Shown: positions 16,140 to 16,279 of the stretch, in pieces
How positions within the stretch are numbered: the stretch's first letter is position 1
Layout of the letters: every line of letters starts with the position of its first letter
From: Escherichia coli
GTDB taxonomy: Bacteria > Pseudomonadota > Gammaproteobacteria > Enterobacterales > Enterobacteriaceae
Strand: one strand, 5' to 3'
Assembly (NCBI RefSeq): GCF_003790525.1
Contig: NZ_CP033635.1
DNA: 64,000 nucleotides
Made by a program: the position numbers

Positions 16140-16279
16140 TGATTTTTTCGCATATTTTTCTTGCAAAGTTGGGTTGAGCTGGCTAGATTAGCCAGCCAAT
16201 CTTTTGTATGTCTGTGCGTTTCCATTTGAGTATCCTGAAAACGGGCTTTTCAGCATGGAACGTACATATTAAATAGTAG

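What the first reader, a model, noticed from the sequence alone, without database searches (positions are those of the whole stretch)
16161..16196. Perfect 19-bp palindrome overlapping the candidate alpha-operon promoter -10
GCTGGCTA-gat-TAGCCAGC (16178-16196) is a perfect 8-bp inverted repeat sitting on the predicted -10 (TAGATT) of a TTGCAA-N17-TAGATT promoter between rpmJ and rpsM. It could be an operator for an unknown dimeric binder, an RNA hairpin in read-through spc transcripts (it is followed by CAATCTTTTGT), or part of the region recognised by S4 for alpha-operon translational control.
Basis: inference. Interest (0 to 1): 0.2.

Follow-up and report, generated by a model that had tools for sequence, protein, structure and literature searches.

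The report
Terminator hairpin nested in alpha-operon promoter
The palindrome is real: it is a conserved RNA hairpin, most likely a leaky terminator ending the E. coli spc ribosomal-protein operon, laid directly over the well-known promoter of the next (alpha) operon. It is tidy but ordinary gene-boundary architecture.

Summary
The window is E. coli. GCTGGCTA-gat-TAGCCAGC sits at 16178-16196, between rpmJ and rpsM, on TTGCAA-N17-TAGATT exactly as described.

- **Promoter:** published SMRT-Cappable-seq puts the alpha-operon start at A16198. The promoter is therefore real, with an 8-nt GC-rich discriminator that is also the hairpin's 3' arm. The hairpin is absent from alpha-promoter transcripts.
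- **S4 site:** the Rfam S4 pseudoknot (Alpha_RBS) starts at 16210, so the palindrome is not part of it.
- **3' ends:** published Term-seq has RNA 3' ends at 16204 and 16209. These lie 8 nt after the core stem and 7 nt after an extended stem (-22.8 kcal/mol, z -3.5), inside TCTTTTGTAT.
- **Conservation:** the dyad is invariant across Enterobacterales and Aeromonas. Pasteurellaceae and Vibrionaceae have different arm sequences that still pair, with compensatory changes and sense-strand G·U intermediates. This argues for an RNA hairpin, not a sequence-specific operator.
- **Wider pattern:** terminator-like hairpins overlapping or abutting the alpha promoter recur across Gammaproteobacteria.

Best reading: a leaky intrinsic terminator of spc read-through transcripts nested in the alpha promoter. 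Termination itself is inferred, not demonstrated. Ordinary and essentially known; low interest.

The parts
16026..16142 (+). rpmJ (L36), last gene of the spc operon; its stop codon lies 36 nt before the core hairpin
   Evidence: ORF list; RefSeq annotation of the identical E. coli region
16161..16166 (+). -35 hexamer TTGCAA of the alpha-operon promoter; its GCAAA also pairs with UUUGU as the outermost part of the extended hairpin
   Evidence: Sequence; conserved as CTTGCAA or CTTGAAA in Enterobacterales, Aeromonas, Pasteurellaceae and Vibrionaceae; MFE structure
16178..16185 (+). 5' arm of the core hairpin, GCTGGCTA (last 6 nt of the promoter spacer plus TA of the -10)
   Evidence: invariant in Enterobacterales and Aeromonas; covaries with the 3' arm in other orders
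16184..16189 (+). -10 hexamer TAGATT, spanning the 5' arm end, the loop (GAT, 16186-16188) and the first base of the 3' arm
   Evidence: 17-nt spacing from TTGCAA; consistent with the mapped start at 16198
16189..16196 (+). 3' arm of the core hairpin, TAGCCAGC; bases 16190-16197 (AGCCAGCC) form the 8-nt GC-rich discriminator of the promoter
16198..16198 (+). Transcription start (+1, A) of the rpsM-rpsK-rpsD-rpoA-rplQ transcript (MG1655 3442562)
   Evidence: SMRT-Cappable-seq supplementary data of PMC6131387: 1695 reads (M9 sheet) and 1186 reads (a later sheet) start here and run to the rplQ terminator
16162..16208 (+). Extended RNA hairpin in read-through transcripts: 16162-16167/16203-16208, 16171-16176/16197-16202 (A16177 bulged), core 16178-16185/16189-16196
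   Evidence: RNA MFE -22.8 kcal/mol, shuffles -14.1 +/- 2.5, z = -3.5; the G16173·U16200 pair becomes A-U in some Enterobacterales; the extension covaries in Aeromonas and in L120-L123
16200..16209 (+). U-rich tract TCTTTTGTAT holding the mapped RNA 3' ends at 16204 (MG1655 3442556, M63 medium) and 16209 (3442551, LB OD 2.0)
   Evidence: Term-seq supplementary file 1 of PMC7815308; terminator-like site reported by the consensus scan
16210..16321 (+). S4-binding pseudoknot leader (Rfam RF00140 Alpha_RBS); it begins 14 nt after the palindrome and is not part of the feature
   Evidence: cmscan 102.7 bits, E = 6e-24; in 9 of 12 related loci scanned the family matched, and each match starts after the local hairpin

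Best explanation
The palindrome encodes an RNA stem-loop that forms only in transcripts arriving from upstream (the spc operon promoter, or the internal secY start). Together with the following U-rich tract it acts as a leaky intrinsic (Rho-independent) terminator, or at least a 3'-end-defining hairpin, at the end of the spc operon. The same DNA is the core of the strong sigma-70 alpha-operon promoter. The 5' arm is the downstream end of the 17-bp spacer. The loop is the middle of the -10. The 3' arm is the GC-rich 8-nt discriminator. The U-tract is the first 3-12 nt of the alpha transcript. Polymerases that read through carry the S4-regulated leader just as alpha-promoter transcripts do. Shown here: the sequence, the transcription start, the 3' ends, and conservation and covariation of pairing. 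Inferred: that the 3' ends arise by termination rather than by trimming, and that termination is only partial.
For: (1) Geometry. An 8-bp stem with 5 G-C pairs is followed by CAATCTTTTGT, and the terminator scan picks it up. The extended stem folds at -22.8 kcal/mol, z = -3.5. (2) Term-seq 3' ends lie at 16204 and 16209. These are 8 nt after the core stem and 7 nt after the extended stem, the spacing expected of intrinsic termination. They were labelled 'orphan' only because they lie more than 50 bp past rpmJ. (3) The start at 16198 places the hairpin outside alpha-promoter RNA, so those 3' ends must belong to upstream transcripts. (4) Promoter-anchored ungapped alignments show pairing kept with different sequences. 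For Enterobacterales/Aeromonas versus Vibrionaceae, 87% of cells are paired against 16-56% when partners are slid, 3 pairs change on both sides, and 0 of 500 shuffles reach the observed score. For Pasteurellaceae, 95.5% are paired against 23-44% slid, with series such as C-G, U·G, U-A. (5) Non-Watson-Crick positions inside the stems are G·U on the sense strand. A·C occurs only at the bulge or in the outer extension. (6) Terminator-like sites occur in 54 of 107 distinct rpmJ-rpsM spacers, against 7.0 +/- 2.3 in shuffles. They always lie upstream of Alpha_RBS. (7) Reads starting inside secY cross the hairpin and reach the rplQ terminator, so the site is leaky.
Against: The U-tract does not abut the core stem (CAAUC intervenes) and is interrupted. 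No 3' end was called in exponential LB. SMRT-Cappable-seq called no termination site here for reads starting in secY. So termination is weak or conditional at best. Term-seq cannot tell termination from 3' exonuclease trimming back to a hairpin. Within Enterobacterales the whole segment from about -45 to +12 of the promoter is invariant, so conservation there cannot be credited to the dyad alone. The covariation rests on few independent lineages.
Confidence: 0.7

Rival explanations
1. The hairpin is a 3' stabiliser or processing barrier rather than a terminator. Read-through RNA is cleaved downstream and trimmed back to the stem, which protects secY-rpmJ mRNA.
For: The 3' ends sit at two positions, 16204 and 16209. 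No termination site was called in the long-read data. A review reports that disrupting rpmJ lowers expression of secY, which is compatible with a 3' stability element but does not demonstrate one.
Against: The 7-8 nt spacing from stem to 3' end inside a U-run, and the recurrence of U-rich tails after the homologous hairpins in other orders, are what termination predicts. Trimming needs no U-tract.
Confidence: 0.15
2. The dyad acts at the DNA level. It could be an operator for a dimeric regulator of the alpha promoter, or a cruciform or supercoiling-sensitive element over the -10.
For: Perfect symmetry over the -10 and strict invariance in Enterobacterales and Aeromonas. A weak low-resolution in vitro sigma-54 holoenzyme SELEX peak falls in this spacer.
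Against: Arm sequences are unrelated in Pasteurellaceae and Vibrionaceae while pairing is kept. The dyad centre moves 2 bp relative to the -10. Loops vary from 3 to 7 nt. Sense-strand G·U positions would be A·C mismatches on the other strand. I saw no good -24/-12 match when I inspected the sequence. Arms of 8 bp are short for cruciform extrusion (general knowledge).
Confidence: 0.05
3. The palindrome is part of the S4 translational operator of the alpha operon.
For: Proximity only: it lies 14 nt upstream of the pseudoknot.
Against: Alpha_RBS covers 16210-16321. The palindrome lies upstream of the start at 16198, so it is absent from the alpha-promoter mRNA. The published comparative model of the S4 RNA does not include it.
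Confidence: 0.02
4. Chance complementarity between a promoter spacer and a GC-rich discriminator, with no function of its own.
For: About one perfect 8-bp, loop-3 hairpin is expected per 64 kb. Promoter constraints alone would conserve the -10 and the discriminator.
Against: The spacer-side arm is not a sigma-70 recognition element, yet it tracks the discriminator through compensatory changes in three orders. Mapped 3' ends sit just downstream.
Confidence: 0.03

Closest known systems
Intrinsic (Rho-independent) terminators at operon ends, for example the S10-operon terminator in this same window (hairpin 10472-10495 plus T-run)
   Same: G+C-rich stem-loop after the last stop codon, a U-rich 3' tail, RNA 3' ends 7-8 nt after the stem, partial read-through into the next ribosomal-protein operon.
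   Different: The U-tract is interrupted and separated from the core stem by CAAUC. The hairpin is nested inside the next promoter, with the -10 in the loop and the discriminator as the 3' arm. At the S10-spc junction the terminator and promoter lie in tandem.
The alpha-operon (rpsM) promoter of E. coli, a ppGpp/DksA-sensitive ribosomal-protein promoter
   Same: TTGCAA-N17-TAGATT with the start mapped at A16198. The GC-rich discriminator and the 9-bp distance from the -10 to +1 resemble rrnB P1 (from memory). DksA represses the Salmonella rpsM promoter in vitro.
   Different: Nothing differs; this is that promoter. The added point is that its spacer is complementary to its discriminator.
Rfam RF00140 Alpha_RBS (S4-binding pseudoknot)
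   Same: Same intergenic spacer and same regulatory neighbourhood. Both are conserved across Gammaproteobacteria.
   Different: The coordinates do not overlap (16210-16321 against 16178-16196). The hairpin is not in the alpha-promoter transcript.

Membership tests
Intrinsic (Rho-independent) terminator | Stable G+C-rich RNA stem-loop | tested here: met
   8-bp core stem with 5 G-C pairs; extended fold -22.8 kcal/mol, z = -3.5
Intrinsic (Rho-independent) terminator | U-rich tract immediately 3' of the stem | tested here: inconclusive
   CAAUCUUUUGU follows the core stem (4 U in the first 8 nt). UUUGUAUGU follows the extended stem (6 U in 9 nt). The site passes the consensus scan but the tract is interrupted.
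Intrinsic (Rho-independent) terminator | In vivo RNA 3' ends about 7-9 nt after the stem | tested here: met
   Published Term-seq 3' ends at 16204 and 16209, read from the paper's supplement, not measured here
Intrinsic (Rho-independent) terminator | Stem-dependent release of RNA polymerase in vitro, without Rho | not testable with these tools
   Needs in vitro transcription with stem and compensatory mutants
Conserved RNA secondary structure | Pairing kept through compensatory substitutions | tested here: met
   3 pairs change on both sides in each of two promoter-anchored alignments. 87% and 95.5% of cells are paired, against at most 56% when partners are slid. Few independent lineages are involved.
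Sigma-70 promoter (alpha-operon promoter) | -35 and -10 hexamers at 16-18 bp spacing, with a mapped start downstream | tested here: met
   TTGCAA-N17-TAGATT; start at 16198 from SMRT-Cappable-seq
Rfam RF00140 Alpha_RBS (S4 operator) | Lies within the covariance-model match or the alpha-promoter transcript | tested here: not met
   The match covers 16210-16321; the palindrome lies upstream of +1
Operator for a dimeric DNA-binding protein | Half-site sequence and spacing conserved wherever the site is conserved | tested here: not met
   The arms are GCTGGCTA (Enterobacterales), TTGAGCAG (Pasteurellaceae) and GGTCGAG (Vibrio). Loops vary from 3 to 7 nt and the centre shifts by 2 bp. An Enterobacterales-specific binder cannot be excluded.

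The most novel reading that the evidence does not exclude
The nesting may be functional, not just compact. Because the discriminator of a ppGpp/DksA-controlled promoter doubles as the terminator's 3' arm, read-through from spc and local initiation could be traded against each other with growth state. The 3' ends were called in stationary-phase LB and in minimal medium but not in exponential LB. Hairpins overlapping the alpha promoter recur in many gammaproteobacterial lineages in different registers.
Probability: 0.12. Interest if true: 0.5.

Novelty: already known. Interest (0 to 1): 0.2.

Why it matters
It fixes the boundary between two of the most heavily expressed operons in E. coli. The alpha genes receive transcripts both from their own promoter and from leaky read-through of spc. 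The rpsM promoter fragment widely used as a constitutive promoter carries an embedded upstream-facing terminator hairpin. It also explains two 'orphan' Term-seq 3' ends. The cross-order covariation is a small addition to a well-studied locus. It opens no long-standing question.

Tried and rejected
- **Original 1980s papers on this junction:** none was held. I tried the 1982 S4 repression paper, the 1993 PNAS S4 paper, a guessed PMC id for the 1983 spc-operon sequence paper, and the 2011 ppGpp/DksA ribosomal-protein promoter paper. My recollection that the early sequence papers noted a terminator-like structure overlapping the alpha promoter, and read-through from spc, is therefore unverified.
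- **Full-text searches** for a described spc terminator found nothing explicit.
- **Other datasets:** the E. coli dRNA-seq paper was not held. Two 3'-end papers and a Rend-seq annotation paper had no supplementary text held. The Cappable-seq supplement had no hit for the terms searched.
- **One MAFFT alignment of all three clades** registered on the -10 and put the Pasteurellaceae dyad 2 columns out of register. I therefore counted pairs on two separate ungapped alignments.
- **Sigma-54 promoter reading** (gSELEX peak): rejected, because I saw no good -24/-12 match when I inspected the sequence.
- **Bidirectional terminator:** rejected. On the minus strand the hairpin is followed by a T-poor sequence (read).
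- **Genome-contig scan:** I supplemented it with exact-L36 look-ups. The organisms of those assemblies were not identified.

Full report
**Observation.**
The window is Escherichia coli. The 311-bp stretch around the finding is 100% identical in sampled genomes and at least 99% identical in all 5425 genomes with a match. The genes are rpmJ (16026-16142) and rpsM (16289-16645).

The sequence reads ...CTTGCAAAGTTGGGTTGAGCTGGCTAGATTAGCCAGCCAATCTTTTGTATG....
- GCTGGCTA lies at 16178-16185, gat at 16186-16188 and TAGCCAGC at 16189-16196. This is a perfect 8-bp inverted repeat.
- TTGCAA lies at 16161-16166 and TAGATT at 16184-16189, separated by 17 nt.

Every coordinate in the finding is correct. Chance alone is not excluded. 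Composition-matched random sequence of 64 kb gives about 6.3 +/- 3.1 perfect 8-bp hairpins with loops of 3-8, and about 1.0 with a loop of 3. The case therefore rests on other evidence.

**Relation to the promoter and to the S4 site.**
- Supplementary data of the SMRT-Cappable-seq study (PMC6131387) list a primary transcript running from MG1655 3442562 to the rplQ terminator and covering rpsM-rpsK-rpsD-rpoA-rplQ. It has 1695 reads in the M9 sheet and 1186 in a later sheet.
- The conversion is MG1655 = 3458760 minus window position, so this start is A16198. I checked the conversion against the printed Term-seq sequences.
TAGATT is followed by an 8-nt GC-rich discriminator (AGCCAGCC) and then +1.
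- The rpsM promoter is described as one of the strongest in the cell. DksA represses it in vitro in Salmonella (PMC12998499).
- As a result, the whole palindrome lies upstream of +1 and is absent from alpha-promoter RNA.
- Rfam's Alpha_RBS model, the S4 pseudoknot, matches 16210-16321 at 102.7 bits. That is 14 nt downstream of the palindrome. The published comparative model of the S4 RNA starts with helix H1 in that region (PMC3616713).

The S4 reading is therefore rejected.

**RNA ends.**
The Term-seq tables of Adams et al. (PMC7815308, supplementary file 1) list two minus-strand 3' ends in this spacer.
- 3442556 (M63 medium, about 97,900 reads) corresponds to window 16204.
- 3442551 (LB OD 2.0, about 77,800 reads) corresponds to window 16209.
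- No 3' end was called here in LB OD 0.4.

They are labelled 'orphan' only because they lie more than 50 bp past rpmJ. Position 16204 is 8 nt after the core stem. As RNA, the region folds into an extended hairpin of -22.8 kcal/mol. It pairs 16162-16167 with 16203-16208, 16171-16176 with 16197-16202 (A16177 bulged), and includes the core. Shuffles give -14.1 +/- 2.5, so z = -3.5. Position 16209 is 7 nt after the end of the second tier. Both ends fall in TCTTTTGTAT. The consensus scan also flags the site as terminator-like.

These 3' ends cannot come from alpha-promoter transcripts, which would be only 7-12 nt long at that point. They must belong to RNA made from upstream. The site is leaky. Reads starting at a weaker start inside secY (3443129) cross it and reach the rplQ terminator. 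No termination site was called here in that dataset.

**Comparative evidence.**
I collected rpmJ-rpsM spacers from 80 species genomes and from 51 further places found by exact L36 sequence.
- **Enterobacterales.** This covers Enterobacter, Photorhabdus, Acerihabitans, an uncultured Enterobacterales MAG, an Orbaceae genome (GTDB Enterobacterales) and about 20 unnamed assemblies. In the unnamed assemblies and in Enterobacter and Acerihabitans, the promoter segment from GCATATTTTTCTTGCAA to TCTTTTGTATG is essentially invariant, while helix H1 of the S4 leader just downstream varies freely. In Photorhabdus, the MAG and Orbaceae the dyad is kept but the flanks and the loop vary. The one recurrent change nearby turns the G16173·U16200 pair into A-U.
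- **Aeromonas.** It keeps GCTGGCTA/TAGCCAGC with a different loop, and its extension also pairs.
- **Pasteurellaceae.** The arms are GTTGAGCAG/CTGCTCAAC, with variants GTTGAGTAG/CTGCTCAAC (U·G), GTTGAGTAG/CTACTCAAC (U-A) and AGCTGGGTAT/ATACTCAGCT.
- **Vibrionaceae.** The arms are GGTCGAG/CTCGGCC, with GGCCGAG/CTCGGCC in one lineage.

In all four groups the -35 (CTTGCAA or CTTGAAA) and the 17-nt spacer are kept. The -10 sits in the loop or at the arm ends, and the discriminator forms the 3' arm.

I counted pairs on ungapped alignments cut at a fixed offset from the -35, so they are not fitted to the fold.
- The Enterobacterales/Aeromonas/Vibrionaceae set has 87% of cells paired, against 16-56% when partners are slid. 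Three pairs change on both sides, and 0 of 500 shuffles reach the observed score.
- The Pasteurellaceae set has 95.5% paired, against 23-44% slid. Three pairs change on both sides, and 7 of 500 shuffles reach the score.
- Non-Watson-Crick positions inside the stems are G·U on the sense strand. A·C occurs only at the E. coli bulge or in the outer extension.

Caveat: the number of independent lineages is small, and the shuffle control ignores relatedness.

**Beyond these orders.**
- Alteromonadales and Shewanella have a stand-alone hairpin with a U-rich tail between rpmJ and Alpha_RBS.
- In Pseudomonas and Stutzerimonas the hairpin abuts a TTGATT -35.
- In Halomonas, Marinobacter and one MAG it encloses both the -35 and the -10.
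- In three other lineages the -10 lies in the loop or in the 3' arm.
- By the same rule as the scanning tool, 54 of 107 distinct spacers carry a terminator-like site. Shuffles give 7.0 +/- 2.3. The spacers are not phylogenetically independent.
- Two insect-endosymbiont genomes lack it.

The general pattern is a terminator hairpin packed against or over the alpha promoter. The register with the -10 in the loop is one variant of that pattern.

**Interpretation.**
The best-supported mechanism is a leaky intrinsic terminator, or at least a 3'-end-defining hairpin, for spc-operon read-through RNA. It is encoded by the same DNA as the core of the alpha promoter.
- **Shown:** the sequence, the transcription start, the 3' ends, the pairing and its covariation.
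- **Inferred:** that the 3' ends arise by termination rather than by trimming, and that efficiency is partial.

A sequence-specific operator is unlikely. The arms differ between orders, the dyad centre moves 2 bp relative to the -10 in Pasteurellaceae, and loops vary. A weak, low-resolution sigma-54 holoenzyme SELEX peak in this spacer has no good -24/-12 match that I could see in the sequence.

**Comparison with what is known.**
- This is the classical alpha-operon promoter, next to the classical S4 operator.
- Terminator hairpins at ribosomal-protein operon junctions are standard. The S10-spc junction in this window has one at 10472-10495 followed by T-runs, and then the spc promoter in tandem.
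- From memory, and unverified here because the papers were not held, the early sequence papers and later transcript mapping described read-through from spc into alpha and a terminator-like structure at this junction.
- What this analysis adds is the placement of published start and end data on the dyad, and the cross-order covariation.

I therefore rate the feature as already known and of low interest.

Noticed in passing
window 16322 (MG1655 3442438): The strongest Term-seq 3' end in the region (about 300,000-540,000 reads in LB OD 0.4 and M63; in LB OD 2.0 the nearby call is at 3442430 with about 77,000 reads) lies 1 nt past the end of the Rfam Alpha_RBS match, 33 nt into rpsM. It could be a pseudoknot- or S4-protected 3' end, or premature termination.
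   Followed up: no
window 17689-17709: A perfect 8-bp hairpin, AGCTTTAC-tccaa-GTAAAGCT, spans the rpsD stop codon at the rpsD-rpoA junction.
   Followed up: no
window 10472-10540: At the S10-spc junction, the terminator hairpin AAACGGCTCAGAAATGAGCCGTTT plus a T-run is followed in tandem by the spc promoter. That promoter has an extended -10 (TGTTATAAT) and a GC-rich discriminator (GCCGCGCCC). This contrasts with the nested arrangement at spc-alpha.
   Followed up: partly
L015, L016, L018, L021, L022, L025, L026, L117 (rpmJ-rpsM spacers): In Alteromonadales- and Shewanella-type spacers, a TTGCAA-like hexamer lies exactly 17 nt upstream of TATCCT, the conserved loop motif of the S4 pseudoknot. 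It is either a promoter inside the S4 leader or a spacing imposed by the RNA structure.
   Followed up: no
L028-L078 (Pseudomonadales, Oceanospirillales, Cellvibrionales and related spacers): These spacers share a promoter-like motif, TTGATT-N17-TAnnnT-nnGCGCC(T/C)TTT. Local hairpins overlap it in different registers: abutting the -35, enclosing the -35 to -10, or centred on the -10.
   Followed up: partly
window 15631 (MG1655 3443129, inside secY): A secondary transcription start inside secY (177 reads in the M9 sheet). Its transcripts cover rpmJ and read through the hairpin to the rplQ terminator.
   Followed up: no
window 15914 (MG1655 3442846, inside secY): A recurrent Term-seq 3' end inside secY, 112 nt upstream of rpmJ, flagged in the paper's table as lying in a significant Rho termination region. 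A weak terminator-like hairpin lies at 15865-15880.
   Followed up: no
window about 16143-16288 (rpmJ-rpsM spacer): A weak in vitro gSELEX peak for sigma-54 holoenzyme (32% intensity) is reported in this spacer. I saw no convincing -24/-12 element in the sequence.
   Followed up: partly
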